The position numbers and the translations under genes are program-made. DNA of 64,000 nucleotides from Eledone cirrhosa (taxonomy: Eukaryota): positions 241,552,001-241,616,000 of the forward strand of contig OZ024743.1 in NCBI GenBank assembly GCA_964016885.1, in the 5' to 3' direction. Positions 12,708 through 42,411 of this stretch are shown one piece after another. Under the pieces are notes generated by a model, which saw nothing but the letters and a program-made list of their open reading frames with translations, was not told the origin of the DNA and made no database searches. How positions within the stretch are numbered: position 1 is the first letter of the stretch; each line of letters begins with the position of its first letter.

Positions 12708-12926
12708 GAATCATATATGTTATATGACGAGGACGTATTGAAAAAACAACACAGTACCTTTGAAATATATATAATAAAGCATATATTTTGATTATGTGAA
12801 TATCTTCATTTGTTAATATTTTTAATAATATTAAAAGCTCCAGGAAAATCTTTTCACTGTTGGGTGCTTTTAATCTATTGTAAAACTGTATTCATTGGGT
12901 AATCAATGAACCATATTAATCTTTGG

Positions 12927-12970
<44 letters not shown>

Positions 12971-13076
12971 CGAAGGAAATGTGGTAAGGAACCAGGTGGA
13001 CCATAACGCCCCAAAGTACTCAATACTTAAGGAAGAAGAGTGGGTAATAGGAACGAGTAGGACCCCATATATATAT

Positions 13077-13130
<54 letters not shown>

Positions 13131-13255
13131 TCTATATACACCCGCCCACATATATATATATACATATATACATACATACATACACACGTACATATACACA
13201 CACATATATTCATATATATATATGTGTGTGTATGTTTGTATGTATGTCTATGCAC

Positions 13256-13303
<48 letters not shown>

Positions 13304-13355
13304 CAGGAAAGAAGGTTTACATGGTTTGCTATACAAAAAAGTTTTTAATCACATA

Positions 13356-13461
13356 GCTTACATTTGTTTCACTGAACTGGTATGTCTAGAGATCGCTATC
13401 CGCCTAATTTTGCGTCACTCGATCGCCAATACAGAATTATAACCAGTCAGATCTTCGGAGC
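13356..13461 (-). ncRNA. Hammerhead ribozyme motif in the PLE 3' repeat (mirror of 18963-19068)
   Basis: Reverse complement of the plus-strand motif. Confidence 0.7.
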
Positions 13462-13821
13462 ATGCGAGAATGAAGAAAATACACAGGCAAGAAAATAAAA
13501 GAAAATATGGAGTAGTTATGGCATTCAATTAGAACAATAAACAACAACAATTATTACAACAATGCTATCAATAAACTATTTAAGGAGACCCTGACATTAC
13601 TTAGGTGGGGGGCATATAATGTATCTAATGTTACGGCGTGAAAACCAGCTGTCATAAGGCAAAAAGTATCGTAGTGTGTATCAATTTTAAATTATAAAGA
13701 TAAGCTAGTTTTTACAGTCTTTCTCTTCATCTTCAACCGTATACATGAGTGGGACCACTGTCAAAGCTCAATAGTTGTAGAGTTAATACAGAGGTTAACG
13801 AATTAATATACGCATATATCT

Positions 13822-13894
<73 letters not shown>

Positions 13895-14230
13895 AATATA
13901 AATACATATACACATATATGTGTACATAGACACATACATACACACTAATATACACTCGTACAAAAATATACATACATGCAAAGAGAAAAGCGTGCTAATT
14001 GTAATATGGCAAAAAGAAGGTAAAGTAACATTGTAGTAGTGAAATGAGAAAAACTAGGATCTAGGATCAAATGATTGCAGCAGCTGAGAAGGAGTAAGAT
14101 TGTTGGTAGATGAGGTATTTACAGACTATTGTGTGGTATAGACTTGTGAAGGAAATAGTATACTTAATGAATATATATTTTTTGTGGGTAGTAGGTATCC
14201 TAATTTAAAGCTATGTTATGTTGGTTCGAT

Positions 14231-16144
14231 TCACGGAGGTTTGAATCTTATGAATTTAGTGGCTATTCTATGCCTGCAGAAGATAGATCTTTCTAACTTA
14301 TTATTAAGTAGTCTTTTAACATTTCTAAGGATATACAATAGCTCAAGATCACACAGCCCGCAATAGGACATAACTGTACTATAGGTTTTAGCAGCCGACA
14401 ACTTCGACCAGTTGATAGTGTAGCTAGCGTTGCTGTCCTTCAATTCCCATATTTTTCTGGCGAGGGTGGTGGAACCCATAAGAGCTCGGTTATTCATCGA
14501 GTGCCTGTGCACATACCATCTTTTCTTAAAAGAACCCGCGGTGGATCCTATGTAATTCCAAGTGGAGTTACCCGAGATGACAGTGCACATGTACACCAGG
14601 CTCGAATCGAGACATCTATTCGCCAATGGGCACCTATCTGGGAGGTGACAGTTGCAGTTTGAGGCGCTATTATGTGCAGCTTTTACATTCCTATTTAGTA
14701 CCCTGTTATAAGTGGGTTGTGATATATGCCCAATGGGGTTTTGCTGCTGCGCGTTTGTATGCGCTTGTGGTTGTGATGTTGTGATGAGTTTGTGCTTATG
14801 TATAGGTGCAATTGATTTACTTGAGATATTTCTGCGGTTGATCTTGCGTATGTGTGATTCTATGTTAGCTGCTGTTGAAAAAGAGAGTTTTATAGTAGAT
14901 CTATTGAGTAGTTTGTGATATCTATGCGAGATAGGGAAGTGTTTATCTATTAGTTTAAAGAATATAGAGGGCAGTCTAGTTTTTATAGAGGAGTTGAATA
15001 TTGGGTTGAACCATAGGTATTTCCTTTGTCTGTTTCTTCTATTGTTTCTAGGGTTTACGTTATTAGTGTTTTGGCCGTTTACTCTAGGTGTTACATGTCT
15101 AACCCTATGTCTAGTCAAGCTATTCCTATTATTATGTGAGCGGTTGGAGTAGAAATTACTAGGATTGTTTATGTTGTCCTTATTCACTATATACTGTAGT
15201 TTATCTTTATGACCGGCCCTACTTAATGCTGCATTATAATAGTCAGCATGCTCGTTAAAGATTTCTAGGTTTGAGGATAGGCGGGATATTCGGAGGGATA
15301 TACTACGTGCTATGGATTTAATTATGGATTTGGGGTGATTTGAGTTGTAACTAATGTAGGCAAGATTTTCATTATTTTTGTGGAAAGGTTCTATTAATCC
15401 AGTATTTAGATTTAGAGTTACATCTAGAAAATTTACCTTCTTATGGTTTAGTTCGTAGGTAATACTTAGGCCTAGTTTTTTGAAGAATATTCTAATATTT
15501 TTCCTTAGTCTTTCCATGCTCTGGTTGTTTAGGTTCCTAGCTATAAGTAACGTGTCGTCCCTATAAATTCCTCCTTGGAGGTTACTGAATTCCTTATGTA
15601 GGTTGTGTGCTATGAATAGCCCCACGATATCTGTAATTTGCGCAGAATCATTTGAACCCATTGTAATATCGAAGCTATTTATTCTATCCTTTCTTACCCA
15701 GTAGTTATTTTCAAATTTTACGATAGTCCTTCTAGCCGCTATTATTATTTCAATTTCATCATGGGTAAGATCAGAGTTATTTTGGGCAAATATAAGCGCC
15801 TTATCTAGGGTAGCTGGGGATATGGATGCATAATAGTCGTCTATATCAAATTGTATGAAGTTACACGTATCCCTATTTTGTATTTTATTGAACCATTTAA
15901 TTGCCTCGTTAGTGTTGCCCCATAGATTGATTTCTAGTTTACCCTTTATTTGTGCGATTACCCTATCTAGAATGTTTTTGCTAATTTTACCTATGTCTGA
16001 CTTGGATGGGCATATTAATCTAATGGTAGGATTAGTTTCAAAGTTATTTTTGTGATCTTTCAGGTTAAATGTAGGGTTGCACGGGGTAAGCGGTTCGGTC
16101 CTATCTGAAATTCCGAGTTTATTAACTATCTTGAGGCCCTCCAT
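14231..16144 (-). CDS. PLE reverse transcriptase + GIY-YIG endonuclease, N-terminally truncated (637 aa)
   Basis: Identical to the 16202-18205 product apart from two substitutions (MNNRAL vs MKNRAL; STVMSY vs STGMSY). Confidence 0.9.
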   Translation of the reverse strand: MEGLKIVNKLGISDRTEPLTPCNPTFNLKDHKNNFETNPTIRLICPSKSDIGKISKNILDRVIAQIKGKLEINLWGNTNEAIKWFNKIQNRDTCNFIQFDIDDYYASISPATLDKALIFAQNNSDLTHDEIEIIIAARRTIVKFENNYWVRKDRINSFDITMGSNDSAQITDIVGLFIAHNLHKEFSNLQGGIYRDDTLLIARNLNNQSMERLRKNIRIFFKKLGLSITYELNHKKVNFLDVTLNLNTGLIEPFHKNNENLAYISYNSNHPKSIIKSIARSISLRISRLSSNLEIFNEHADYYNAALSRAGHKDKLQYIVNKDNINNPSNFYSNRSHNNRNSLTRHRVRHVTPRVNGQNTNNVNPRNNRRNRQRKYLWFNPIFNSSIKTRLPSIFFKLIDKHFPISHRYHKLLNRSTIKLSFSTAANIESHIRKINRRNISSKSIAPIHKHKLITTSQPQAHTNAQQQNPIGHISQPTYNRVLNRNVKAAHNSASNCNCHLPDRCPLANRCLDSSLVYMCTVISGNSTWNYIGSTAGSFKKRWYVHRHSMNNRALMGSTTLARKIWELKDSNASYTINWSKLSAAKTYSTVMSYCGLCDLELLYILRNVKRLLNNKLERSIFCRHRIATKFIRFKPP

Positions 16145-16201
16145 GTTTATGCCACTAACGGTATCATAGTAAAAGCAGACAAAACATCAAACGTATACTC
16201 T

Positions 16202-18205
16202 ATGGACATTAACACATACAATAACTTTATTCAGCGTGAACTACATAAAAAATATAAAAAAAAAAATGAATCTACACTCACCAGCATAAACATGGAGGGC
16301 CTCAAGATAGTTAATAAACTCGGAATTTCAGATAGGACCGAACCGCTTACCCCGTGCAACCCTACATTTAACCTGAAAGATCACAAAAATAACTTTGAAA
16401 CTAATCCTACCATTAGATTAATATGCCCATCCAAGTCAGACATAGGTAAAATTAGCAAAAACATTCTAGATAGGGTAATCGCACAAATAAAGGGTAAACT
16501 AGAAATCAATCTATGGGGCAACACTAACGAGGCAATTAAATGGTTCAATAAAATACAAAATAGGGATACGTGTAACTTCATACAATTTGATATAGACGAC
16601 TATTATGCATCCATATCCCCAGCTACCCTAGATAAGGCGCTTATATTTGCCCAAAATAACTCTGATCTTACCCATGATGAAATTGAAATAATAATAGCGG
16701 CTAGAAGGACTATCGTAAAATTTGAAAATAACTACTGGGTAAGAAAGGATAGAATAAATAGCTTCGATATTACAATGGGTTCAAATGATTCTGCGCAAAT
16801 TACAGATATCGTGGGGCTATTCATAGCACACAACCTACATAAGGAATTCAGTAACCTCCAAGGAGGAATTTATAGGGACGACACGTTACTTATAGCTAGG
16901 AACCTAAACAACCAGAGCATGGAAAGACTAAGGAAAAATATTAGAATATTCTTCAAAAAACTAGGCCTAAGTATTACCTACGAACTAAACCATAAGAAGG
17001 TAAATTTTCTAGATGTAACTCTAAATCTAAATACTGGATTAATAGAACCTTTCCACAAAAATAATGAAAATCTTGCCTACATTAGTTACAACTCAAATCA
17101 CCCCAAATCCATAATTAAATCCATAGCACGTAGTATATCCCTCCGAATATCCCGCCTATCCTCAAACCTAGAAATCTTTAACGAGCATGCTGACTATTAT
17201 AATGCAGCATTAAGTAGGGCCGGTCATAAAGATAAACTACAGTATATAGTGAATAAGGACAACATAAACAATCCTAGTAATTTCTACTCCAACCGCTCAC
17301 ATAATAATAGGAATAGCTTGACTAGACATAGGGTTAGACATGTAACACCTAGAGTAAACGGCCAAAACACTAATAACGTAAACCCTAGAAACAATAGAAG
17401 AAACAGACAAAGGAAATACCTATGGTTCAACCCAATATTCAACTCCTCTATAAAAACTAGACTGCCCTCTATATTCTTTAAACTAATAGATAAACACTTC
17501 CCTATCTCGCATAGATATCACAAACTACTCAATAGATCTACTATAAAACTCTCTTTTTCAACAGCAGCTAACATAGAATCACACATACGCAAGATCAACC
17601 GCAGAAATATCTCAAGTAAATCAATTGCACCTATACATAAGCACAAACTCATCACAACATCACAACCACAAGCGCATACAAACGCGCAGCAGCAAAACCC
17701 CATTGGGCATATATCACAACCCACTTATAACAGGGTACTAAATAGGAATGTAAAAGCTGCACATAATAGCGCCTCAAACTGCAACTGTCACCTCCCAGAT
17801 AGGTGCCCATTGGCGAATAGATGTCTCGATTCGAGCCTGGTGTACATGTGCACTGTCATCTCGGGTAACTCCACTTGGAATTACATAGGATCCACCGCGG
17901 GTTCTTTTAAGAAAAGATGGTATGTGCACAGGCACTCGATGAAAAACCGAGCTCTTATGGGTTCCACCACCCTCGCCAGAAAAATATGGGAATTGAAGGA
18001 CAGCAACGCTAGCTACACTATCAACTGGTCGAAGTTGTCGGCTGCTAAAACCTATAGTACAGGTATGTCCTATTGCGGGCTGTGTGATCTTGAGCTATTG
18101 TATATCCTTAGAAATGTTAAAAGACTACTTAATAATAAGTTAGAAAGATCTATCTTCTGCAGGCATAGAATAGCCACTAAATTCATAAGATTCAAACCTC
18201 CGTGA
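16202..18205 (+). CDS. PLE reverse transcriptase + C-terminal GIY-YIG endonuclease (Naiad-type; frame open upstream to ~16154)
   Basis: RT motifs FIQFDIDDYY, MGSNDSAQITDIVG, IYRDD, VNFLDVTLNL; linker CNCHLPDRCPLANRC (CxCx5Cx5C, described for Naiad PLEs); LVY..NYIGST..FKKRWYVH; C-terminal CGLC..E..LLN. Upstream in-frame IVKADKTSNVY shows 5' truncation. Confidence 0.93.
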   Translation: MDINTYNNFIQRELHKKYKKKNESTLTSINMEGLKIVNKLGISDRTEPLTPCNPTFNLKDHKNNFETNPTIRLICPSKSDIGKISKNILDRVIAQIKGKLEINLWGNTNEAIKWFNKIQNRDTCNFIQFDIDDYYASISPATLDKALIFAQNNSDLTHDEIEIIIAARRTIVKFENNYWVRKDRINSFDITMGSNDSAQITDIVGLFIAHNLHKEFSNLQGGIYRDDTLLIARNLNNQSMERLRKNIRIFFKKLGLSITYELNHKKVNFLDVTLNLNTGLIEPFHKNNENLAYISYNSNHPKSIIKSIARSISLRISRLSSNLEIFNEHADYYNAALSRAGHKDKLQYIVNKDNINNPSNFYSNRSHNNRNSLTRHRVRHVTPRVNGQNTNNVNPRNNRRNRQRKYLWFNPIFNSSIKTRLPSIFFKLIDKHFPISHRYHKLLNRSTIKLSFSTAANIESHIRKINRRNISSKSIAPIHKHKLITTSQPQAHTNAQQQNPIGHISQPTYNRVLNRNVKAAHNSASNCNCHLPDRCPLANRCLDSSLVYMCTVISGNSTWNYIGSTAGSFKKRWYVHRHSMKNRALMGSTTLARKIWELKDSNASYTINWSKLSAAKTYSTGMSYCGLCDLELLYILRNVKRLLNNKLERSIFCRHRIATKFIRFKPP

Positions 18206-18541
18206 ATCGAACCAACATAACATAGCTTTAAATTAGGATACCTACTACCCACAAAAAATATATATTCATTAAGTATACTATTTCCTTCACAAGTCTATAC
18301 CACACAATAGTCTGTAAATACCTCATCTACCAACAATCTTACTCCTTCTCAGCTGCTGCAATCATTTGATCCTAGATCCTAGTTTTTCTCATTTCACTAC
18401 TACAATGTTACTTTACCTTCTTTTTGCCATATTACAATTAGCACGCTTTTCTCTTTGCATGTATGTATATTTTTGTACGAGTGTATATTAGTGTGTATGT
18501 ATGTGTCTATGTACACATATATGTGTATATGTATTTATATT

Positions 18542-18599
<58 letters not shown>

Positions 18600-18962
18600 C
18601 GTAGATATATGCGTATATTAATTCGTTAACCTCTGTATTAACTCTACAACTATTGAGCTTTGACAGTGGTCCCACTCATGTATACGGTTGAAGATGAAGA
18701 GAAAGACTGTAAAAACTAGCTTATCTTTATAATTTAAAATTGATACACACTACGATACTTTTTGCCTTATGACAGCTGGTTTTCACGCCGTAACATTAGA
18801 TACATTATATACCCCCCACCTAAGTAATGTCAGGGTCTCCTTAAATAGTTTATTGATAGCATTGTTGTAATAATTGTTGTTGTTTATTGTTCTAATTGAA
18901 TGCCATAACTACTCCATATTTTCTTTTATTTTCTTGCCTGTGTATTTTCTTCATTCTCGCAT

Positions 18963-19068
18963 GCTCCGAAGATCTGACTGGTTATAATTCTGTATTGGCG
19001 ATCGAGTGACGCAAAATTAGGCGGATAGCGATCTCTAGACATACCAGTTCAGTGAAACAAATGTAAGC
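18963..19068 (+). ncRNA. Type-I hammerhead ribozyme variant (CCGAAGA core, long stem II)
   Basis: GCT-CCGAAGA-T-CTGACTGG...CCAGTTCAG-T-GAAACA AA TGTA-AGC; predicted cleavage after 19065. Confidence 0.7.
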
Positions 19069-19293
19069 TATGTGATTAAAAACTTTTTTGTATAGCAAAC
19101 CATGTAAACCTTCTTTCCTGATTTATTATTACTCCAAGTGTTTACAACATAGGAATTACAGCATACCCGCAGCATCACTATGAAAACGCCTTGTTGAGTC
19201 AAACCAAGCCAAGCGTTAATATCATCCACTACCTGGAATACCATAACTGGACTTCACCTAAGTGGACTGCATTTAACTATTATTTGTTAATCC

Positions 19294-19336
<43 letters not shown>

Positions 19337-19426
19337 TGTGTGTGTGTATGTTTATGTTTATGTATATATATGTATGTGTATATTTATATATATATATGTG
19401 TTCGTGTATATATACGTATATATATG

Positions 19427-19457
<31 letters not shown>

Positions 19458-19659
19458 ATGTTTATGTTTATGTATATATATGTATGTGTATATTTATATA
19501 TATATATGTGTGTGCATGTATATGTACGTATATATATGTATATATGTATATATGTATATATATATATATATATATATACATATATATACGTATATATACA
19601 CGCATACATATATATATATATATAAATATACACATACATATATATACATAAACAAACAT

Positions 19660-19702
<43 letters not shown>

Positions 19703-19704
<2 letters not shown>

Positions 19705-21431
19705 GGAACAATTTGAACAGGGACAAAACAGAGAGGCAGTACAACGAATGTTTATTAATTTCACGCTCTGGAGAGTGGGGTGTTGGTGGGGGACGACGTT
19801 TCGGGCATAAGCCCTTCCCCAGGTGAGAAGTGTGTGGGAACAGAGTTCCAAGGGTGTGTAGGGGAGTGGTGGAGAGACATATAGCGAAAGGAAACGGTGC
19901 GAATGAAAAAAATAAAAATAAAAATAAAGCATGATCAAAATACAAGGAATGAAATAAATTTAAATAAAAAAGCCTGATCAAAATAAACTGAAATTAAATG
20001 GGGGGTAAAACAGGTGGTGGAAGGGTGTGGGGTGTGTAGAGGTGGTGGCGGGTGGCGTGGGGAGAGGGAGACGGGGTGTCCGAGCGGGGAGGGCTGAAGG
20101 TGGTGTGTGTGTGTAGGTGTACGTGTGTGTGTGTGTGTGTATGTGAAAGTAAGGGTTGGGGGAAGAACGGGGTTGCATGTTCAGGAAGAGGTGTGTGTGG
20201 GGGGGGGTCGGAGTGTCTGTGCGTGTGTGGATAGAGAGGTGGGGGAGAGGAATCAGGAGGCTGAGAGTGTAAATATGTGGTGGAAAGCACGTGTGTGTGG
20301 GGTTTAAGCGTGTTGTGGGTGTAGGTGGCGTGTGGAGAAAAAAATGTGTTGGGGTGTGTGTGTGGGTGAGTTATATAGGTGATTACGTAAGAGGATGGTT
20401 GAAAAGTTGGTAAAATCCAAAGGTGTTTAGTGGATTCTGTGGTGGTCAATTTCTGCGTGCGAGTATTCCATGAAGCGATGGTCGGAAGAGGAGAGATGTG
20501 GGGTGCGCGCGCAACAGGAAGTGGTCAAGCAGTGGGAGTGCTGTGTGTCTGTTTGGGCTGGGAAGTGGTCAGAGGGCATAGCAGCAGTCGGTGGGATGGT
20601 AAGGGGGCGAGGATGGGTAGGTGTGAAAGTTGGAGTGTGGAGGGTGTGTGTGTGTGTATTAGTAGAGGTGTTAGTGGGATGAGTGAGTGTGGAGCGAGGG
20701 CGTGGGTGGAGCGGGGAGAGAAGGGTGTGTGTGGTTCTATGGAGGGAGTGTGGTGTACTGATGTGTGTGTAGTTTGATGAAAGGGTGTTAGTGGGTGTTA
20801 GTATACGGGAGGTGGGGAGGGGTTGAATGTAGGTGTGAGTGGGGGTTAGTGGTGGTAGGGTGTGTAGAGTTGGTGGTGTACGAGGGTGTGTGGGTACGTG
20901 TGCGTGGGGTTGGGGGTGTTATTGATGTTAGTTGCGTGTGGGGTGGGTGGTGTAAGTGGGTGCGTGTGTTCGTGTGCTTGGGGTTAGGGGGTGTTAGTGA
21001 GGTTAGTTGCGGGGTGGTGGGATGGAGGTGTGGGGGTGAGAGGTGTGGGGGTGAGAGGTGTGGGGGTGAGAGGTGTGGGGGTGAGAGGTGTGGGGGTGAG
21101 AGGTGTGGGGGTGAGGGTTAGTGGTGGTAGTAGGGTGTGTGTTTAGTGTGAGTGCGTGTATATGTGTGCCGGTGGGTGTGTGCGTGTGATAAGGAGGGGG
21201 GGAGGAGAAGAAGGGAGGGATGTTAGTATGTTAGTTGGGGAAGGGAGGTCAGATGAGGGGTGTAGTGGAGGTGTTAGTATTGTTAGTTGTGTTGTGGGCG
21301 GTGAAAAGGAGGGGTGTGTTAGTGGTGTTAGTGGGGGATAAGTGGGGGGGGGAGGTCGAAGGCTAAAGGAATAAGGGTGGGGAGTTCAGGCCGGGGGGAG
21401 TGTGGGTCTGTAAGATGAAGATAGTTCGTTG
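19703..21431 (-). mobile_element. 5'-truncated Neptune-type PLE: last ORF codons, long CA/C-rich 3' UTR, terminal HHR
   Basis: 21431-21363 minus translates QRTIFILQTHTPPGLNSPPLFL* (GIY-YIG C-terminus, compare 42770-43023); HHR AC-CTGGGGA-A-GGGC TTAT GCCC-GAAAACGTC-GT at 19824-19793; flanked by (TA)n. Confidence 0.75.
21025..21116. repeat. 15-bp tandem repeat (GAGGTGTGGGGGTGA) x6
   Basis: Directly visible. Confidence 0.9.
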
Positions 21432-23318
21432 TATATATATATACAGGTGCATAGACATACATACAAACATACACACACATATGTATATATATATATATAG
21501 GTTTAGGAATAACCAAAGAGTGCTTAGAAATACATAGTTTTATTTGCTAACAGTGTTTCATCCATACCCTAGGGCAGGTATAATCAGAGCCTATAAACAA
21601 AAGTATATCAAAGGTTGCAGGCTCCATCGAGCCTAGTCACCAGAACAAGGAAGAAGGACAAGCAGGGGGGAACACAATACATGATACATATAATATTAAA
21701 AAATTACATCATAAAAATTACATCAAAAGTTTATCACATAAATGGTGCAATAGATCATAAGGATGTTGAGAGAGGAGAGCAAGAAATGGATGAGGGTGTT
21801 ACTCAGCATGATCAAAAAACAAATCAAGCATAGATACATCAATTCACAAGCAGTGCAAGTACATAATTTACAAGCAGAGTATGAAAGCTTGTAAGCAGGA
21901 GTCAGTAAACAGAAAAGTTGGTTAGCTGTGGTGCAGCTTTAGAGGCAGGATTGTTTATAGGAAAGATGGTGCACTCTAGCAGTATCGCCTTGTAACAGGT
22001 TGATTTCTCCATATCTGGCCAACACCCTTTATCCATTGGTTCCAGTTCCAAGTATTAGGCGACATAATACTAGGTTTCCAAATACACGCATAGAGGATTT
22101 GTCCACAGAGGCAGTCTGCAACAAACACCTTAAATCCCAAACAGAATACAATGAAGTGAGGTAAAGCGGAGTACATGCACTGCTGGCACTCCAATGAAGG
22201 AAGTGGAAATAAAAGGGGTCCGCAATATCTGCTATCTATCACAGTCTTCACGTTCGGTTACGCAACCCAACGTCCCACGTGAAATACACAGTATGGCCTA
22301 GTCGGCATCGGGCTAAAGTGCCATACCATATGAGGATAAACTACAGTAAATGCTATTCGTAATGGCTAGTTAGTCTCGTAGACAGAAAGCGTATATAGAA
22401 AATCCGCTATTGAATTACCTAGGGCAGAGTGAAGGAAAAGCAGTTATGGTTAGGTTAATAGGCGAGCTTATTAGAAAAAGTGTAAATTTCTGGTGTGTGC
22501 AAGTACTGCAGAAGATATAGTAAACTCACGGCTAGAACTATCGATGACAACAATGTTGTTTACATGTCCACCGCGTAGTTTTCGTGTAGATCACTGAATC
22601 TGGAGGTTGTAATCCTTTCACAGTCGGGTATAACCCCTCCTGGGTCGGCTGGAAGTCAATATCAACTGTCGTACTTTGCCTTTAATGTGGTTTTATAATT
22701 TATCATAATTGCAGCACAATTCATATTCCACAATTTCAATATTTACCTTTTCATTAGTAACTCCCAACGGTTGTCAAAATACGAACGCAGGAAGTCGTTC
22801 TGCGCTTATGAAAAGTATGGGAGGCAGCTCGCGTCATAAAGGGCGGATTCATTAGATATCCCCGGAACGCTTGGGACAAACCCGTTGTTCGATTCAAATC
22901 CTACGGGGGTTTGATCGATCATGTGGGACGTAGTCCACTCGATCCGCTTCAATTGTTCACTATATTATGTTTGATCTATCTACCACGTTATGGTTAAGGC
23001 TATCTGGACCCAAGATGCCCAGGCCATCCGCCTTATAGCTGTGGCGGAGTATGTTGGGCTTTCGATAAACTATTATGTTGTGCTTTCAGTTAGTGCACAA
23101 TGGGCATTTATATAAACCTCATCCCACTGGTTAGTATGGGTAGGTGCCCGTATAGGGTCAAACTGTGGTGGGTGGAGTGAAAAGGCCTTAAGTGGATTGT
23201 ACCATAAGGGTTATTGGGTTAAGGTAAAAAGATGATTAAGGTAAAGAAAAAAGTAAGAGAGAATGAAAGAGAGAAAAGAGGATAAGAGGCAATATACGTT
23301 TGAAGGGCTCTAATTGGT

Positions 23319-23358
<40 letters not shown>

Positions 23359-23369
23359 TGATAACCTGA

Positions 23370-23409
<40 letters not shown>

Positions 23410-23415
<6 letters not shown>

Positions 23416-24579
23416 TCAGGTTATCAATAATGTAGTGATAATATATCGTTACGTTAGAGATGAACAGCGTACGTGCAGGTTTGCTCAACGAGTATAAATT
23501 ATATTCCGGAGAAATGTAGAAAGGATGAATATAAAATGAAAGTGCTTTTGTTAAAAAAGGAATTTATTAGGTGTTGACATATGTTTCTGTAACAGACCGA
23601 ATACCTATGTATCGCTGCTTGCGTAATCATATATAGACATCGCCTTTATAGACATCGTTATTCGATAAAACATGAAAACCAGCGTTATGTAACAACACTC
23701 GCAGACAAGGCTTGGCAGCTGCGTGAAAATAACCAACAATTTCACCTAAAATGGGATATAATAGCGGCTGTCCCCCCATAATCCAATGGACAGGAATTTT
23801 GTAAATTATGTAATGTAGAATTATTTTGTATTATGAAATCCAAAAACATTTTATTAAATAACAGAATAGAGCGATCGTTATACTGTAACCATCGCTTAAG
23901 ATCTACATTTTCATATTATAAATACTACCAGGATTGAACGCCTGTCTCTATCCCCGTTTGATTGTCAAAATAGATATGAACATTCTTTATTAGTCTTAAT
24001 TCTATCAACTCTTCTATTATTTACCTTTTAATACAAACTACTATAGATAAAATGAGATTTCTGATTTCTTGATTCAATTCCCTAATGCATATACCAGCTG
24101 GCTACTAGCATTGATGTTATTTAGTAGCAATCGAAATCTCCCCCTTCCCCAATTGACACTTTATAATTAATACTACTGCACCAAATGACCAGCCCTGTCC
24201 ACTGTCCAGTTGGTCAAGTAGAGATTAAAATTGGCACTCCCAAAATTCTTATTTAGATTTACTCATGGTATTCTCATTAAAAACCCATTATATACTTGTC
24301 TAGCAGTAAATTATTTTACCATCTGTCATATACTATCCCCTCTGTTCCTTCCTCTTTTACTAATATAAATACTTCAATTTTTCTGATTTTATCCAGTTTA
24401 TCCAAAATCTCTGAAGAAGTGACAACTGATTATACATTTGCTATCGAATACTTGCTAACATTATATGATTACGCAAGCAGCGATACATAGGTATTCGGTC
24501 TGTTACAGAAACATATGTCAACACATAATAAATTCCTTTTTTAACAAAAGCACTTTCATTTTATATTCATCCTTTCTAT
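23410..24579 (+). mobile_element. Short Naiad-type PLE remnant with inverted 3' end on the 5' side
   Basis: ~23652-23936 translates HRYSIKHENQRYVTTLADKAWQLRE...KWDII...FCKLCNVELFCIM...LLNNRIERSLYCNHR (one stop); ~23517-23633 is the reverse complement of ~24462-24579; HHR CTGAAGA-A-GTGACA...TGTTAC-A-GAAACATATGTC at 24411-24519. Confidence 0.88.
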
Positions 24580-24618
24580 ATATATATATATATATATATA
24601 TTTATTGTATAGAAGGAG

Positions 24619-24665
24619 CTTCTACAGGACTAGTACTGTTTCATTCAGATTAAATCTTCAGGAAG
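24619..24665 (-). ncRNA. Compact type-I hammerhead ribozyme between two (TA)n tracts
   Basis: CTTC-CTGAAGA-TTTAATCTGAAT-GAAACAG TACTAGTC CTGTA-GAAG; intact core with stems I and III. Confidence 0.75.
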
Positions 24666-24678
24666 ATATATATATATC

Positions 24679-25287
24679 TTGGTTGTCCCTCGAAAACGAT
24701 GATGACATCTTTATTGTTGTTCCCGTTTGCCGTGGGCACGAAGGTGGCTGTGGAGGCCGATCCTTGATTTGCAGATCCGAGGAGAGTGGGGGCAGGGGAA
24801 GAGACCAGAGTCAGACTGGCAACTCCCAGAGGTTACCTCCACCTGTTACCTCCGCCTCTTGCCTATCACCGCAGGGCTTTGGGAGTGCACGCTAAAGAAG
24901 AAACCTGTGCGGGAAAGGTTTATAGTGGGAGGGCCAGTGTACAGTGACGGTCTCACTCACTCGGCCGCAGAAGTCAGAATCCGGTGGTACGGAGGACCGT
25001 CACGACCAGGGACTTCCTTGGCTGCAGTGGATGGCCACAATGTCTGTAGTGCCTTGCCGTGTCCTAGCGCTCCACACCGCTTGCTGTCGCCGCCTTCGTG
25101 AGCGTTGGGACGATGTTGTCCTCCTCCACCCACTCTACCGAGTCCAGTCTTCGCATATAGGGGCAGGCATCCCTTATCTAACTCACACGGGGGATTTCAG
25201 ACCCGTCCGGCTTCCCTCAACCAGGTTTGGCCCGCCAGCCAAGGCGGTTTACCGGAGTGTGGCCGCTGTCGCATGCTACAGCTTCGT
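24679..25287 (-). mobile_element. Internally deleted RTE-clade LINE derivative (5' UTR joined to 3' end)
   Basis: Minus strand ends in PCPHSPRICKSRIGLHSHLRAHGKREQQ*, the C-terminal zinc-finger motif of RTE ORFs; the 5' part GAAGCTGTAGCATGCGACAGCGGCCACACTCCGG resembles RTE 5' UTRs. Confidence 0.7.
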
Positions 25288-25384
25288 ATATATATGTAAT
25301 ATATGTATATATACACGCGCACACATATATAGATATAAATATACACATACATATATATACATAACCATAAACATACACACTCAC

Positions 25385-25462
<78 letters not shown>

Positions 25463-25659
25463 CCAAAGATTAATACGGTTCGTTGATTAATCTACGAATA
25501 CAATTTTACAATAGATCAGAAGCACTCAACAGTTATTTTCCTGGAGTATTTAATATTATTCAAAATATTAATCGATCTGACCTGACTCAGTAACCCGCGG
25601 CTCGTCAGACCACTTGTGATGTTAATGGAAAAAAATATTTTTGCATCAACATTACAAGG

Positions 25660-25748
25660 GGTCTGACGAGCCGCGGATTACCGAGTCGGGTGAGATCGAT
25701 ACAGATCGAACGAACCTTGAGCTGATCAGTGGCGAAACGCGCGTCACC
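25660..25748 (+). ncRNA. Canonical minimal type-I hammerhead ribozyme
   Basis: GGT-CTGACGA-GCCGC...GTGGC-GAAAC GCGC GTC-ACC; palindromic stem III (ACGCGCGT), GUC site at 25743-25745, AATAAA at 25753. Its 5' half is mirrored at 25571-25623. Confidence 0.85.
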
Positions 25749-25797
25749 AACCAATAAACGTAATGAAGGAGTGGCCAATCGTCCTTGTTATCTTATG

Positions 25798-25853
<56 letters not shown>

Positions 25854-25859
<6 letters not shown>

Positions 25860-26891
25860 TTTACATATATATATACATACATATACATATACGTGTTTTG
25901 CAACTGGTCACTTTGTGGCTCAATGAAAAATTAATAAATTAAACAATCAGAGCTATATATCATAAAACATGTCTATAGAATCACAAGATAAAATTTATAC
26001 TATTTCATCTCCCATATAGCATAATTAATTATATAAAAAATCGAATAGACCAGGCTATAAGAATGAGGCTTATATGAAGAAATCTCCGACAAATAACCGA
26101 AACTAGTGCTTCGCGTCGGCCGGAGCGGAATATTTATCGAATATTTCGACAGCGTAATCGCCCAGATATAGTCAACTAAACAGAATTAGGTGTGAAATAA
26201 ACTAGGAGAAAATAGAATACATTTAAATACCTCTACCATGGTTTCGTCCGTATTTTGAGTTTTCCAATAATTATGTAATAATTATATAAGTTGCAAAACA
26301 CGTATATGTATATGTATGTATATATATAGGTAAACTTTTATATGTAATAATCTCCCATCAGGTTGAGATACAAATTTGGCTGTATTGTGCTGTGCTTTCT
26401 AGCAAAAATGCCACCAGTCGTAAGCAACTACCACACCCCTTCCAACCTGACGGCGACTACGGCACGATTTTTAGCCATTTTGAAATGAATTCTTGGCGCG
26501 ATCACTTTGAAAAATTTAGTGTCTAGATAAGAGCGAGCTTCCTGATGAATCCGGCGCTCGAGTTTATATAATTATTACATAATTATTGGAAAACTCAAAA
26601 TACGGACGAAACCATGGTAGAGGTATTTAAATGTATTCTATTTTCTCCTAGTTTATTTTACACCTAATTCTGTTTAGTTGACTATATCTGGTCGATTACG
26701 CTGTCGAAATATTCGATAAATATTCCGCTCCGGCCGAAGCGAAGCGCTAGTTTCGGTTATTTGTCGGAGATTTCTTCATAGAAGCCTCATTCTTATAGCC
26801 TGGTCTATTCAATTTTTTTATATAGTTAATTATGCTAATTGGGAGAGGAAATAGTATATATTTTATCTTGTGATTCTATAGACATGTTTTA

Positions 26892-26899
<8 letters not shown>
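25854..26899. mobile_element. Non-coding HHR fold-back element (retrozyme-like)
   Basis: Inverted arms 25954-26289 / 26564-26899 and 25854-25905 / 26289-26341; (TA)n flanks; no ORF. Confidence 0.8.
26538..26623 (+). ncRNA. Minimal type-I hammerhead ribozyme
   Basis: CTTC-CTGATGA-A-TCCG...CGGA-C-GAAAC CATG GTA-GAGG; palindromic ACCATGGT stem III. Confidence 0.85.
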
Positions 26900-27024: not shown

Positions 27025-27404
27025 CCAAAATTAAGATAAATCAAATGAATTTAATCCAAATCAAAATTATGGGTGTCATGCCAGAAAGACATGCGCCATA
27101 TCACCCGCAAAATAAGCTCTAAGATTCTAACGAGTAGGTCCGAGCATTTTATAATAACTAGAAATTGATTAACATATAAATAAACATGAATAATCACAGG
27201 AGATAATTTTTACAAGTGTGTAACCACACATAGCTAGGTAGGTAACTACATAAAGTTGACCAGAACTTCAAAAATAGATACCTTATAATATGATTAATCT
27301 TCCCTGTATATATTCCATTAAAGAAATAAATTTCTCCAAATGTAAAAATTATCTCCTGTGATTATTCCTGTTTATTTATATGTTAATCAATTTCTAGTTA
27401 TTAT
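27025..27404. repeat. TA-flanked fold-back element with ~65-bp arms
   Basis: ~27151-27214 is the reverse complement of ~27341-27404; no clear HHR. Confidence 0.75.
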
Positions 27405-27424: not shown

Positions 27425-28440
27425 AACGAAGGAAATGTGGTAAAGAACCAGATGGACTATAACGCACCAAAGTACTCAATACTTAGGGTAGTAGAGTGGG
27501 TAATAGGAACAAGTATGACCCCGACGGCAGAGCTCAAGCCGTTTCGACGGCTAATTCTGGACTAAAGAATTTTTATAATGCAGCCCATCGGTCCTCTGTA
27601 GCCTCAGTAACCCCACCCCCCTAATTTTATGATAGAATTGGCCGATTACACTTTTTATTGCAGATGTGTTAGACCCTAGTGAATTGTGTTCTTTCTGGTT
27701 GCTGCTCCATTTCTGTGGTTTCTAAATTTCTTAGTGGTATTTTTGTATTAGTATTCTTGTATTAGTATTTATGTATTAGTATTTTTGTAGTAGTATTTTA
27801 GCATTTTTGTTCTCAACTTATTAACCTCTCATTGTAAGATATCATTGGCTGATTACTACTAACTATAGCAGTGGTGTTAGAACCCCTGTAAAGCCGCCTT
27901 TATAACATTCTTTTACTACAATCTCGTATTTAGTATTTTTCTCCACCTATTAAACTTTCCTATAGCTTAGAAATACCAATGAGAGATTTGGTGATTGTCG
28001 GAATGGAGTAGTAACCAGAAATTGTTTTTTTTTAAATATATTTATTTCCTTATTTTTATAATAGTTTTTTGTTTACTCCCTTTGGATTTACCTATTCTTT
28101 CAGCCTCCCCCTTCTCCAGTACACTTTTCTCGACCATCTATACACTATCCTTAGAATCTGCTGTATAGATTTCACTTTCAACGCTTGACTGGATTTTCCC
28201 CCACCCCCTCTTTGTTCTACCGGCAAGTTCAGCTACCCCTACCTCCCACCAAATGCCATGATAGAATCATCTGTCTTTACAACAAATTTTTGACCAATCC
28301 TTTTGACAATTACCATCTTCCCATATAAGGAATTACCCCCTGAGAAGTTCGGCTATTTATTTACCAGGCTAAAAATTCTTATTTAGTCCAGAATTAGCCG
28401 TCGAAACGGCTTGAGCTCTGCTGTCGGGGTCATACTTGTT

Positions 28441-28443
<3 letters not shown>
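27425..28443 (+). mobile_element. Non-coding PLE-type remnant with HHR and inverted 3' end; related fragments at 12969-13066 and 40573-40622
   Basis: HHR ACCCC-CTGAGAA-..CGGCTA...TAGCCG-TC-GAAACGGC TTGAGCTCT GCTGTC-GGGGT at 28335-28430; ~27503-27574 is its inverted 3' portion. Confidence 0.75.
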
Positions 28444-29354: not shown

Positions 29355-29355
29355 G

Positions 29356-30366
29356 TATAAAAGAGAAAACACAGGTAAGCATTAAGAGAAGTATTTTATC
29401 CAGATATTTACGACCGTTTCATTGGTAAGTGCAACCTTATATTGCTATACTGCAAATAGCAGCCACTCAATTATAATTGTTGACTATCTTACTCCACGGC
29501 ACCAAATATAGAGGCACACATTGAGATGCTTAATGCTAAAAAGATACATAACAACACCAAAACACAAATTTACAACAATAACAATACAATCACCACCGAA
29601 CACAACAGAATATCTAATACACAACCACCCGCTAATAGGCAAACAAAACGTAACACACTTGTACAGGCATCGCAGCCCACCAATAATGTCAAAGTTGCCC
29701 ATGACAAGAATTGTAACTGCCACCTACCTAAAACCTGTCCATTACATAATGAATGTATGCAGTCTAACCTGGTTTACCAATGCACAGTGGAATCAGACAA
29801 CCAGAAATGGTATTACATCGGAGCAACTGGGAATACATTTAAAGCCCGTTGGCATACACACCGTTACGCAATGAAACATTCCCAGCATCGTAACTACCCT
29901 TGCAAACAAGACCTGGCAACTGATGGAAAGTAACCATCAATACACCCTGAAGTGGAAAACATTATCGAACGCGCCCCCATATCGAAGTGGTATGAGAAGC
30001 TGTCGATTATGCGACCATGAGCTGTTCCACATCTTGAGTTCGAAGAATTAGTTACTCAACAATAAAATCGAAAGATCAATTTATTGTAATCATAGACTCA
30101 AAGAGAAGATTTTGCACTACAAATCGAACCCTTAACCTCTTACTACCAACTGACAAACTGCATATACTTAGACTTTATACCCTCTTGTTGTATATAAACC
30201 CTTTTTATTACCCACAAAACCAATACATATTTCCCCCTCTTCTCCCTCATTCCTCTTCTATTTCTTCGTTTTCTTGCTTCCTTCCCTCCCCTTCTTGGCT
30301 ATCTTTTCTTTTCTTCTTTCTCACCCACTTCTTTGCTTTTATCTTTGTCATTATTATCTTAATCTT

Positions 30367-30432
<66 letters not shown>

Positions 30433-31002
30433 CTCTTTATATCTCCCCGCTCTCTCTCTCACTCTCTTAATTCTCTTTAACTCACTACATTCCACGACAT
30501 GAAGTCTGCTATTAAAAATGACCAAGGAATCCTTCCACCGCTACCCCTCCCTCCATCTCAGTTTGTCACTCTACTTCCTACCTCTTCCCTCTTCCACTCT
30601 CTCTATACTATTCCGTTTATCCCCTCACCTTCTGATTCCTCTCTCTCTATACTAGTAAATACAATTCCAAATAAATGTTTTTCTCTATATATTAAGAATT
30701 ATTTCAAGATTAACTTACTCACTATTTTGAAAATTTGGACACTGAACAACAATTATAATTGAGTGGCTGCTATTTGCAGTATAACAATATAAGGTTGCAC
30801 TTACCAACGAAACGGTCGTAAATACCTGGTTAAAATCCTTCTCTTAATGCTTACCTGTATTTTCTCTTTTATACTTTATACTCCAAGATTGAACGGAATT
30901 CTTACAAACTTGTGGAGTTACCCGTAACCGTACGTAGAAACTAACCATGGAACTGGCTTTCTTAACCAAGAACTGGATCACAATAAGCAATCTTTTGCTT
31001 CT

Positions 31003-31008
<6 letters not shown>
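29356..31008 (+). mobile_element. Decayed Naiad-type PLE with inverted 3' end on the 5' side and a tail
   Basis: CNCHLPKTCPLHNEC..LVYQC..YYIGATGNTFKARWHTH in ORF 29526-29933; frameshifted continuation CRLCDHEL...LLNNKIERSIYCNHR to ~30135; ~29356-29482 is the reverse complement of ~30747-30873; decayed HHR at 30723-30824. Confidence 0.9.
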
Positions 31009-32400: not shown

Positions 32401-32420
32401 ACTTTGGACACTGAATCACC

Positions 32421-38867: not shown

Positions 38868-39610
38868 CATCTCGGAAGTTGTTTTTCGCTCATTTCCAAT
38901 AGACGAAATGCAATTCTCGTTAATTTATATATATATATATATAAATTACCGAGAATCGCATTTCGGCTATTCGAAATGAGCGAAAAACAACTTCCGAGAT
39001 GTGTGGCAAGCGCTCCATAGAAACTAGAGAACTAGTGCAACAACATAAGTTAAAAGGCCAAACACACTGAGACAATGGTTGAACCATTATCCGCAAAGCC
39101 ATAGAAACGACCACAGCTATTCGGCTCAAATAAATAATACAATATGATTGAAAATTATACCCGGACCCCTGGAAAACGTGGTAAGATCCGATATGGGGTT
39201 TCTGCAACTCCTAAATCAGGTACTGTCTGCTTAAACAAATAATGTTAAGCTTTTGGTATGATGATCGATCAAGGAAGTCACTTCTTCAACAGGCATTTAG
39301 TTCTATGCAAAGCTAAGGACTGACCGTTATCAAAACCCACGTGGGAGACAGCCCCTAGTCTTAGCGGATGAATTCAGTATCTGTGTTATTGCGGATGAAT
39401 TCAGTATGTGTGTTATTGCAAAATTACAAAATTTCACAAAACGAATTAAGCTCTCAACGGAATAGTTTTAAAAATTAACAAGAGCTATTAATCAGTCAAT
39501 AGAATTAATTAAAAACAAAAAAAAATTTAACTAGTTAATAGTCAGACTCTGGAGATTAATACAAATATAAATTAGCGAGAATCGCATTTCGGCTATTGGA
39601 AATGAGCGAA
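38868..39610 (-). mobile_element. Non-coding HHR-bearing unit (~626-nt period) with mirrored 3' end
   Basis: 38868-38927 is the reverse complement of 38942-39001 across (TA)n; 38941-38984 is directly repeated at 39567-39610; decayed HHR TGT-TGAAGA...CAAAAGCTTA-ACA at 39291-39243. Confidence 0.65.
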
Positions 39611-40768: not shown

Positions 40769-41135
40769 AATATACATACATACACACACACATATATATA
40801 TATATGTGTGTGTGTATGTATGTATATATGCGCTCGCTAGTATGTATGTGGGTTTGTCTTTATCTGTGTGTGTCTGAGTACCTTTATGATCCCGTAACTC
40901 TAGATGGAGTCGTGGTGGGGGCCATCACGTCCTTGACGTGACATGGACATATTAAAGTTAGCGGAACCCATCCCCTCTCCATGAAAAAGAGATAAATGAA
41001 AGAATCGATTACAGTATTGGACAGGTACATTTTTATCAATGCCGAAATGAATAAATGGGACGCATTCTATTCGACGTTATAACGATCATGCCAATTATAT
41101 GCGCATGTATATATATATATTTTTATTTTTTATTT

Positions 41136-41358
41136 TTTTTTATCGACTTTCGTCAAATCGGACCGAGGAAACAATCAATGTTTCCATTGGTCTTTCCAAT
41201 TGCTAATACAATCTATCGGTCGCAACTCCAGGTAGAAGGAGCAACGTGAAATGAAGTGTCTTGCCCAAGGGCATAACGCATCGCCCGGTCCGGAAATCGA
41301 ATTCACAACCTCACGATTTCGAATCCAATTCTCTAACTACTCAACAACACGCTTTCAA
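41136..41358 (-). mobile_element. tRNA-derived SINE, family B; its 3' tail is duplicated in inverted orientation at 41358-41447
   Basis: Minus strand GCGTGTTGTTGAGTAGTTAGAGAATTGG...GAATTCGATTTCCGG...CTTGGGCAAGACACTT...ACGTTGCTCC plus tail AGTTGCGACCGATAG...CGAAAGTCGATAAAA; homologous to 42540-42749. Confidence 0.8.
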
Positions 41359-41443
41359 GTTGCGACCGATAGATAGTATTAGCAATTGGAAATACCAATG
41401 GAAACATTGTTTCCTCGGTCCGATTTGACGAAAGTCGATAAAA

Positions 41444-41499
<56 letters not shown>

Positions 41500-41657
41500 C
41501 ATGCGCATATAATTGGCGCGATCGTTATAACGTCGAATAGAATACGTCCCATTTCGGCATTGATAAAAATCTACCTGTCCAATACTGTAATCGATTCTTT
41601 CATTTATCTCTTATTCGTGGAGAGGGGATGGTTTCCGCTAACTTTAATATGCCCATG

Positions 41658-41830
<173 letters not shown>

Positions 41831-42411
41831 AAGCCTGTGGCTGAGTAGTTAGAGAATTGGATTATATATATATATATATGTATATATATAGACACACATA
41901 CATATATATGTATATAAAAGGCAAACAGAAATAACAACACAATCGTTACAGTATATGGAAGGAATATATTAGGTTAACGCTTGATATAGCAGGAAGAGGG
42001 TCTTAACGTTTCGGACGCTAGTCCTTCACTAAAAGAAAGAATGAGAAATTAGAAATATTGAAGGGACGGGTGGGGTGGAATTGGAAAAAATCTCTTTAGA
42101 TAAAAAATAACAGGTCCATTCATGTGACCACCTCTTGGAAAACTGTTGATGCAGAAGTTTTGTGTATTATATAATTTTTTTTGAAAAGTGGATGCTGGAG
42201 CGCATTTACCTGAAATGGAAAAAAGACCGTTTTTAATTAAAGAGCTATTGTTGTGCGCGTGCGTATGCGTGTATATATAGATAAATAGAGATAGAGAGAG
42301 TGAGAAAGAGATAGATAGATATGTGTGGGGTGTGTGTATATATTATACATACATATATATATATATTACGTTGCTCCAGTTTACTCAGCTCTAGAACTCA
42401 GCTGAGTTCTT

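What the first reader, a model, noticed from the sequence alone, without database searches (positions are those of the whole stretch)
12812..25571. Mirror duplications of flanking DNA across (TA)n form nested shells around the palindrome
Seen: ~13220-13265 (left flank of the palindrome) reappears inverted and apparently exact at ~21435-21482; 12812-12929 reappears inverted and diverged at 25460-25571; ~19336-19430 resembles an inverted 25300-25390. Uninterrupted versions exist at 23352-23428 and 38868-39001, where sequence is simply mirrored about a (TA)n tract. Inference: nicked (TA)n snaps back and self-primes, giving an inverted target-side duplication, and later insertions into the central TA push the arms apart by up to 12.5 kb. 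This would be a non-standard insertion scar and a local genome-expansion ratchet.
Basis: partly seen in the sequence, partly recalled or inferred. Interest (0 to 1): 0.7.

Follow-up and report, generated by a model that had tools for sequence, protein, structure and literature searches.

The report
Penelope pile-up with TA-anchored fold-back copies
This animal DNA is a pile of Penelope-like jumping genes sitting in TA repeats, sprinkled with short backwards copies of neighbouring DNA that were likely made when broken TA ends folded back and rejoined; the pairs cross instead of nesting, and both ingredients resemble known processes.

Summary
All five mirror pairs are real and local (39/39, 96/115, 84/97, 17/17, 54/58), but they are not nested shells: the exact 39-nt pair crosses the 19335/25296 pair, and divergence does not follow spacing (rho 0.21, p 0.35). 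Two things overlap. (1) The 5.8-kb palindrome and five similar units are head-to-head insertions with a one-sided tail, three of them carrying Penelope-like (PLE) coding sequence. The central one has Hydra-clade motifs; (TA)n targeting and the inverted copy are published. These fit fold-back synthesis from a broken (TA)n end onto the same or a neighbouring tract, with rejoining through TA, a known repair scar. Mirrors add about 357 of 12,760 bp; inserted blocks add 11,502, so insertion drives the expansion. Copy number genome-wide and empty alleles could not be checked. New variant of known kinds; interest 0.35.

The parts
12813..12927 (+). X: left arm of the oldest mirror, followed by (TA)21; no PLE motif found
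12970..13066 (-). F: TA-bounded end piece of a 4-copy repeat family; direct copy at 27426-27522 (88/97)
13220..13258 (+). A: mixed microsatellite, exact inverted copy of 21444-21482; possibly the newer copy
13301..16152 (-). Inverted 5'-truncated copy of the central PLE, lacking the tail
16153..19123 (+). Direct 5'-truncated Hydra-like PLE: RT plus C-terminal GIY-YIG ORF 16163-18205, 3' UTR, hammerhead-like motif 18966-19065; 16153-16283 is the 131-nt loop
19124..19294 (+). 171-nt tail on the direct copy only, ending at (TA)20
19335..19665 (.). B cluster: B1 19335-19426 and B2 19446-19554 (direct), B3 19599-19665 (inverted)
19703..21431 (-). TA-bounded block with a hammerhead-like motif at 19799-19822; likely a decayed PLE 3' part (no Pfam hit)
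   Evidence: label is inference
21444..21483 (-). A': TA on both sides; its outer edge also matches the start of B2 (17/17)
21500..23320 (.). TA-bounded block of unknown identity (no Pfam or Atlas hit)
23354..23374 (+). 17-nt copy of the tail end of the adjacent PLE unit, tail-to-tail across (TA)18
23411..24577 (.). Head-to-head PLE unit: inverted copy with 107-nt tail 23411-23633; direct copy 23634-24577 with endonuclease fragment and hammerhead-like motif 24411-24519
24602..25295 (.). Block of unknown identity between TA tracts (no Pfam hit)
25296..25390 (-). B': inverted copy of B1/B2, directly inside X' across (TA)35
25462..25571 (-). X': inverted copy of X; its outer end abuts the hairpin at 25571-25700
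25571..25801 (+). Short unit with a 55-nt inverted 5' copy (20-nt loop), hammerhead-like motifs and (TA)27 at its end; arm divergence 7/55, equal to that of X/X'
25856..26893 (.). Head-to-head unit: inverted copy with 98-nt tail, 52-nt tail-end piece in tandem, direct copy with hammerhead-like motif 26542-26619 spanning the arm boundary
27025..27401 (.). Head-to-head-type unit, 126-nt loop, 125-nt one-sided extension; element identity not shown
27426..28442 (-). Family-F unit with 77-nt tail and inverted copy 28370-28442
29355..31007 (.). Head-to-head Hydra-like PLE unit with 133-nt tail
38868..38925 (+). 58-nt copy of the end of unit 38944-39569, tail-to-tail across (TA)9; third copy at 39570-39610
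40769..40827 (.).
40940..41862 (.). Best flank mirror: 40940-41107/41496-41659 (8 substitutions in 160), with inverted copies of both ends of the SINE-like element 41121-41357 (41358-41439 and 41828-41862)

Best explanation
The region is a pile of Penelope-like element pieces sitting between (TA)n tracts, several as head-to-head pairs with a one-sided tail, plus short inverted copies of neighbouring DNA that were likely made by fold-back synthesis from broken TA ends. Class I (palindrome and five like units): the element's endonuclease likely cuts a (TA)n tract on both strands, each end primes reverse transcription at one of two start sites on the RNA (with or without tail), and the copies join head to head; for the palindrome, a cDNA snap-back over its 131-nt loop is as likely. 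Class II (A, B3, B'-TA-X', 40769, 41496-41659, 41828-41862, probably also the 17- and 58-nt mirrors): a 3' end finishing in TA would anneal to its own or a neighbouring (TA)n on the same strand, copy 17-250 nt backwards and rejoin the other broken end through TA. Because the switch can go between different tracts, pairs cross. Breaks would come from PLE nicking or from cruciform cleavage, with repair of the polymerase-theta type. Shown: the pairs, their TA ends, the crossing, the PLE sequence in three units. Inferred: every enzymatic step, the order of events, and which arm is new.
For: Central ORF: 113 homologues, best 38-39%; DKT, CxCX5C, CxxC and CxH motifs match the Hydra clade, which inserts in (TA)n (PMC8557442 section 11), one family being listed with an inverted 5' copy (supplement S1). 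Arms are element sequence: in three units the hammerhead-like core starts outside the arm and GAAAC-N4-GTH lies inside; the tail-less end lies 58, 54 and 58 nt past that motif in three different units. Family F reuses two ends, two copies each, as two RT start sites predict (PMC11167929). 13 of 21 pairs have a TA run of 10 nt or more at exactly one outer end and none at both; 6 of 21 have it at both inner ends; background 0.6-0.9% per end. Of 38 TA-bounded segments, 12 have a near-full local inverted partner, 5 a local direct one, 3 a distant one. 41828-41862 copies what looks like a SINE 5' head, and A and B are microsatellites, so an RNA 3' end cannot be their template (inference). X/X' and the adjoining hairpin both differ by 12.7%, as one event would give. 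Fold-back inverted insertions of 10 to over 150 bp occur at yeast breaks (PMC11724301); TA cruciform breaks are repaired by Pol-theta MMEJ (PMC13645644).
Against: The inverted-over-direct excess at TA edges is not significant (13 vs 6, p 0.17; 5 vs 2, p 0.45), and the 12 segments are only six events plus the B cluster. Pair limits were set by hand from alignments, so TA adjacency is partly ascertained. Hammerheads are motif-level only: no Rfam match at gathering score, relaxed scan 7 against a shuffled mean of 3.55 and maximum of 7, folding z -1.96 to -0.04. The 58-nt spacing fails for the 25856 unit (274 nt), and the motif is missing in the 27025 and 27426 units. Tails of 77-171 nt exceed the published 30-40 nt. 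X' has no outer TA. X/X' (87%) is less alike than the direct F pair (91%), so X alone could be two dispersed copies. In C. elegans, snap-back is only a minor part of Pol-theta inserts (PMC5068794, S7 legend). Hairpins without TA also occur (3645-3760, 12599-12723). No allele or orthologue was available.
Confidence: 0.62

Rival explanations
1. One reading: each mirror arises by snap-back within one (TA)n, and later insertions into the central TA push the arms apart into concentric shells.
For: Same-tract mirrors are enriched (p 0.002); 6 of 21 pairs have TA on both inner ends; 40940-41107/41496-41659 can be read as a shell round a head-to-head SINE; X-TA-B / B'-TA-X' encloses 5.9 kb of TA-bounded blocks.
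Against: A/A' crosses B/B'; A/A' is less diverged than X/X' (0/35 vs 14/110, p 0.022; against B alone p 0.32); no rise of divergence with spacing; the two cited uninterrupted cases are element ends; 15 of 21 pairs lack TA on both inner ends.
Confidence: 0.12
2. No DNA fold-back: all mirrors are retrotransposition products, either abortive cDNAs from the same PLE RNA end primed in the next TA, or independent insertions of one family that happen to face each other.
For: The 17- and 58-nt mirrors and the 52- and 41-nt tandem pieces all copy a unit's outermost end; the three 38944-end copies differ star-like, as if of one age; family F shows same-family TA-anchored ends 12-14 kb apart in direct orientation.
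Against: Does not explain A, the B cluster, 40769, the 164-nt copy at 41496 or the 36-nt SINE-head copy, none of which is an element 3' end; B' sits collinear with X'.
Confidence: 0.14
3. Class II copies arise during replication with no break: the fork stalls at a (TA)n hairpin, the nascent strand switches to the other strand by microhomology and returns through the self-complementary TA.
For: It gives the same product. 23354-23374 starts with the first bases of its template, as a switch-and-return would leave. TA-free hairpins exist.
Against: Several copies abut element 5' junctions (A', X', 41358), which points to coupling with insertion; otherwise not separable by sequence alone.
Confidence: 0.1
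4. The palindrome and exact mirrors are assembly or library fold-back artefacts.
For: Arms 99.86% identical; A/A' exact.
Against: Arms differ at 4 sites and in (CA)n length; the palindrome stops 58 nt past the hammerhead-like motif, as the 95% and 99% identical units do; most other pairs are 3-19% diverged.
Confidence: 0.02

Closest known systems
Hydra-clade Penelope-like elements (Craig et al. 2021, PMC8557442)
   Same: RT with C-terminal GIY-YIG; DKT, CxCX5C, CxxC and CxH motifs; (TA)n insertion; an inverted 5'-truncated copy is listed for Penelope-13_HM.
   Different: This copy is over 3.1 kb although 5'-truncated (clade generally under 3 kb); only 36-42% identical to the eight relatives aligned; no tree was run.
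Canonical PLE insertion: partial tandem, inverted pLTR, optional tail (PMC3846280, PMC8557442, PMC11167929)
   Same: Head-to-head copies, tail on either end, two reused 3' ends, palindrome at the junction.
   Different: Tails here are 77-171 nt, not 30-40; short tail-to-tail end copies across TA (17 and 58 nt) are the rarer orientation.
Fold-back templated inverted insertions at double-strand breaks (yeast, PMC11724301; Pol-theta inserts, PMC5068794; MMEJ at TA repeats, PMC13645644)
   Same: Short inverted copy of nearby DNA, primed by local homology and rejoined with little homology.
   Different: Here (TA)n appears to serve both as priming site and as rejoining site, between different tracts hundreds to thousands of bases apart, in a germline genome and at high density.
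Snap-back 5' junctions of R2-mediated insertions (PMC11371274)
   Same: The cDNA end primes a copy of itself or, less often, of nearby target DNA before joining.
   Different: Another retroelement class and an engineered system; copied lengths and TA anchoring were not compared.

Membership tests
Hydra-clade PLE (central element) | Single ORF, RT followed by C-terminal GIY-YIG | tested here: met
   Open frame 16163-18205; aligns end to end with RT-EN homologues; YIG at residue 574. Pfam gave no hit on this ORF.
Hydra-clade PLE (central element) | DKG motif changed to DKT | tested here: met
   DKT at residue 6
Hydra-clade PLE (central element) | CxCX5C linker; CxxC and CxH around the conserved E and N | tested here: met
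   CNCHLPDRC 540, CGLC 638, CRH 666
Hydra-clade PLE (central element) | CCHH motif absent from the endonuclease | tested here: met
   Read by eye from alignment A1: no cysteine pair in the GIY-YIG core
Hydra-clade PLE (central element) | N-terminal RWK motif | not testable with these tools
   The copy is 5'-truncated; its homologues carry RWK or RWR
Hydra-clade PLE (central element) | Canonical hammerhead ribozyme near the 3' end | tested here: inconclusive
   CCGAAGA core (one mismatch) and GAAAC-N4-GTA present; folding not significant; no Rfam match
Hydra-clade PLE (central element) | Insertion in (TA)n | tested here: met
   (TA)21 and (TA)20 at the two ends
Hydra-clade PLE (central element) | Generally under 3 kb; RT groups with Hydra families in a tree | tested here: inconclusive
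   The truncated copy is already 3,142 bp (16153-19294); no named Hydra references were at hand and no tree was run
Canonical PLE head-to-head insertion with tail | Inverted 5'-truncated copy adjoining the 5' end | tested here: met
   Palindrome, 23411, 29355 units with PLE coding sequence
Canonical PLE head-to-head insertion with tail | Tail on one end only, from two discrete 3' ends | tested here: met
   Six units with a one-sided extension; family F has 2 + 2 copies at two ends
Canonical PLE head-to-head insertion with tail | Tail length 30-40 nt | tested here: not met
   77, 98, 107, 125, 133 and 171 nt
Canonical PLE head-to-head insertion with tail | Target-site duplication | not testable with these tools
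   Cannot be read inside (TA)n
Fold-back templated inverted insertion | Short inverted copy of DNA near the junction | tested here: met
   17-165 nt copies; 12 of 38 TA-bounded segments
Fold-back templated inverted insertion | Homology at the priming site | tested here: met
   TA on both inner ends in 6 of 21 pairs
Fold-back templated inverted insertion | Excess of inverted over direct copies | tested here: inconclusive
   13 vs 6, p 0.17; 5 vs 2, p 0.45
Fold-back templated inverted insertion | Arises at a break and needs end-joining enzymes; absent from the empty allele | not testable with these tools
   No alleles, orthologues or mutants
   A/A' crosses B/B'; 4 crossings among 21 pairs
   rho 0.21, p 0.35 (21 pairs); rho 0.36, p 0.35 (9 pairs); low power
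   Holds within the window for A, X and 40940-41107; fails for 23354 and 38868; genome-wide copy number unchecked

The most novel reading that the evidence does not exclude
TA-targeting Penelope endonucleases drive a self-feeding cycle: each nick in (TA)n triggers TA-to-TA template switching that copies host flank backwards and leaves one more TA tract, which is a new target. Runaway islands of PLEs, TA tracts and local inverted repeats result (78 of 81 TA tracts lie in 12-52 kb, 3 in the first 12 kb). This would be a retroelement-specific flank-inversion scar and a steady source of double-stranded RNA in such genomes.
Probability: 0.25. Interest if true: 0.6.

Novelty: new variant of a known kind. 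Interest (0 to 1): 0.35.

Why it matters
PLE integration is still poorly understood, and inside (TA)n its junctions are usually unreadable. This window gives six head-to-head units with long tails, a fixed 54-58 nt distance from ribozyme-like motif to tail-less end in three of them, and short tail-end copies: usable constraints on the mechanism. If TA-to-TA fold-back proves genome-wide and tied to PLE nicking, it would explain how microsatellite- and repeat-rich invertebrate genomes build TA islands and local inverted repeats (possible dsRNA sources; speculation). As it stands, the large structures are known PLE architecture and the small mirrors resemble known repair scars.

Tried and rejected
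Nested-shell reading: rejected on crossing and on divergence. MicroRNA matches: 153 hits, all 150 listed below their gathering scores and falling on hairpins or microsatellites; none at gathering; treated as chance. Naiad or Nematis label for the central element: dropped, since the endonuclease is C-terminal and the linker is CxCX5C. Tails as the start of the ORF: only a by-eye likeness for the 30875-31007 tail; not claimed. First null for B was swamped by pure TA runs and was redone. First hammerhead scan missed the visible cases; the strict rescan gave 2 against a shuffled mean of 0.4, the relaxed one was no better than shuffles. Identity of 21500-23320 and 24602-25295: no Pfam hit among 14 window frames except GIY-YIG at 39607-39888, no tblastn hit with window LINE frames, no Atlas hit. 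Pairs 32417/32629 and 32591/32819 were left unresolved and out of the 21-pair table, as were dispersed SINE copies. PMC3212979 was read in passages and is not a precedent. No eukaryotic DNA collection was on hand, so genome-wide copy number stayed unchecked; the prokaryotic collection is not relevant and was not scanned, and viral and metagenome collections stayed unchecked.
Full report
Setting. The window is AT-rich animal DNA full of microsatellites and repeat fragments. It holds 81 (TA)n tracts of 10 nt or more: 3 in the first 12 kb, 78 in 12-52 kb, none in the last 12 kb. A cephalopod source is my guess from the recalled look of its SINEs; I did not test it.

Observation. A (13220-13258 / 21444-21482) is 39/39. 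X (12813-12927 / 25462-25571) is 96/115 columns. B (19335-19426 / 25296-25390) is 84/97. The mirrors at 23352 and 38868 are 17/17 and 54/58. A's next-best copy in the window has 6 mismatches, and 0 of 63 similar mixed-microsatellite 39-mers had an exact partner. B's 60-nt core has 3 mismatches to B' and 10 to the first copy outside its cluster; 1 of 33 controls did as well. X has one strong partner.

Not nested. A/A' crosses B/B', and 4 crossings occur among 21 pairs. Divergence does not follow spacing (rho 0.21, p 0.35; for 9 mirror-type pairs rho 0.36, p 0.35). A/A' is less diverged than X/X' (p 0.022) but not significantly less than B/B' (p 0.32). The 21 pairs were delimited by hand; two unresolved pairs near 32.4-32.9 kb and dispersed SINE copies were left out.

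The palindrome is a PLE insertion. The arms 13301-16152 and 16284-19123 differ at 4 sites and by 12 nt of (CA)n, with a 131-nt loop. The ORF has 113 homologues, the best at 38-39%, nearly all unnamed; Pfam gave no hit. It carries DKT, CxCX5C, CxxC and CxH, the marks of the Hydra clade, whose families nearly all insert in (TA)n (PMC8557442, section 11 read). Its supplement lists an Octopus family and one family with an inverted 5'-truncated copy (part 2 of the supplement file read). An inverted 5' copy with a one-sided tail is standard PLE architecture (PMC8557442 and PMC3846280, passages), and the tail matches the gap between two RT start sites, with both target strands cut and extended in vitro (PMC11167929, parts 1-2 of 4 read). 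Here 19124-19294 is the tail.

Five more units share the plan: 23411-24577, 25856-26893, 27025-27401, 27426-28442 and 29355-31007, with tails of 77-171 nt, longer than the published 30-40. tblastn with 60 of the 113 homologues finds PLE coding sequence in the 23411 and 29355 units. In three units the hammerhead-like core starts outside the arm and its GAAAC-N4-GTH lies inside, so the arm is element sequence and not copied host DNA. The tail-less end is 58, 54 and 58 nt past that motif in the palindrome, 29355 and 23411 units, but 274 nt in the 25856 unit, and the motif is absent in two units. Family F has two copies ending at the tail end and two at the tail-less end. The ribozyme calls are motif-level only: Rfam found none, the relaxed scan did not beat shuffles, and folding energies were not significant, although 24395-24530 folds with the expected stem II.

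The two 'uninterrupted mirrors' are element ends. 23358-23374 copies the last 17 nt of the tail of the 23411 unit. 38868-38925 copies the end of unit 38944-39569, which resembles the 23411 unit around its ribozyme-like motif (z 5.3) and has a third end copy at 39570-39610; the three copies differ star-like. Snap-back at TA and a second abortive RT event both fit, and sequence cannot separate them.

The residue that needs DNA-templated copying. A, the B cluster, 40769-40791, 41496-41659 and 41828-41862 are microsatellites, flank or what looks like a SINE 5' head (orientation inferred from its A-rich tail). Of 38 TA-bounded segments of 15-250 nt, 12 have a near-full local inverted partner, 5 a local direct one and 3 a distant one; the 12 are six events plus the B cluster. 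Mirrors about one tract are enriched (2 of 24 against 3 of 1575, p 0.002), but the overall inverted excess at TA edges is not significant (p 0.17 and 0.45). 13 of 21 pairs have TA at exactly one outer end and none at both, against 0.6-0.9% per end by chance, which fits one arm being a new copy rejoined through TA; this count mixes both classes.

Likely history of 12.8-25.6 kb (inferred). An old event copied X-(TA)-B backwards as B'-(TA)-X'. X' abuts a small hairpin unit with the same 12.7% divergence, so the copy may have formed at that element's 5' junction. X alone is weak evidence, since the direct F pair 14.4 kb apart is more alike (88/97); the collinear B' is what ties it. Blocks then entered the spacer and the TA between X and B. 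A has no counterpart between B' and X', and the outer edge of A' matches the start of B2 17/17, so A may be the newer copy, taken from A' across at least the B cluster. The palindrome unit went into the TA beside A. Six inserted blocks make up 11,502 of 12,760 bp, 2,515 bp of them unidentified; mirror copies add 357 bp here and about 720 bp in the window.

Mechanism and precedent. A 3' end finishing in TA can pair with any (TA)n on its own strand, copy backwards and rejoin through TA. Fold-back insertions of 10 to over 150 bp occur at yeast breaks (PMC11724301, abstract and section 15). TA cruciforms are cut and repaired by Pol-theta MMEJ (PMC13645644, passages). Snap-back onto cDNA or nearby target DNA is a junction class of R2 insertions (PMC11371274, passages). 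Against a Pol-theta origin, snap-back is a minor part of inserts in C. elegans (PMC5068794, passages). Non-autonomous PLE-derived tandem units are described in bioRxiv 10.64898/2026.07.22.740005 (passages; its supplements not seen). Nine searches showed no paper describing TA-to-TA flank inversions at PLE-rich loci; the library lacks most subscription journals, so this is weak evidence of novelty.

Verdict. Observation partly confirmed, interpretation partly supported. The large structures are known PLE architecture with unusually long tails; the small mirrors are real and likely TA-anchored fold-back scars. New variant of known kinds, interest 0.35. The boldest open reading, a PLE-driven cycle that multiplies TA tracts and inverts flanks, has probability about 0.25 and would merit 0.6.

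Noticed in passing
window 16153-16283, 27215-27340, 41228-41357: Three unrelated inverted pairs have loops of 131, 126 and 130 nt, among loops ranging from 12 to over 1,200 nt; may be chance or a preferred fold-back length.
   Followed up: no
window 51247-64000: Three head-to-tail copies of an L1/Tx1-like LINE (RT and AP-endonuclease domains), 80-92% alike, with no (TA)n tracts; the Tx1 label is recalled.
   Followed up: partly
window 35185-38017: Long trinucleotide-built arrays reading as Thr-rich or Asn/Asp-rich frames; could be a mucin-like exon or a minisatellite.
   Followed up: no
window 3645-3760 and 12599-12723: Hairpins with 12-nt loops and no (TA)n; the first is built from the end of the SINE-like family at 2002-5843 and is 61/61 identical to the copy at 4594-4654.
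   Followed up: partly
window 32417-32858: Interleaved inverted repeats at the 3' end of the decayed PLE at 31278-32382, without TA; not resolved.
   Followed up: partly
window 41947-43627: Old inverted pair (81% at aligned sites) with a hammerhead-like word near 43540; likely a decayed head-to-head PLE of another clade.
   Followed up: partly
window 39607-39888: GIY-YIG endonuclease fragment (Pfam E 6.8e-5) of a PLE type different from the central element.
   Followed up: partly
window 23628-23655: Short direct duplication at the head-to-head junction of the 23411 unit, as microhomology joining with slippage would leave.
   Followed up: no
window 21979-22257 (minus strand): 93-aa frame with a CX2C-H-C-like motif, recalled as typical of LINE C-termini; no Pfam or Atlas hit.
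   Followed up: partly
window 45049-45780: Broken frames that look like a mariner-type transposase (recalled likeness, not searched).
   Followed up: no
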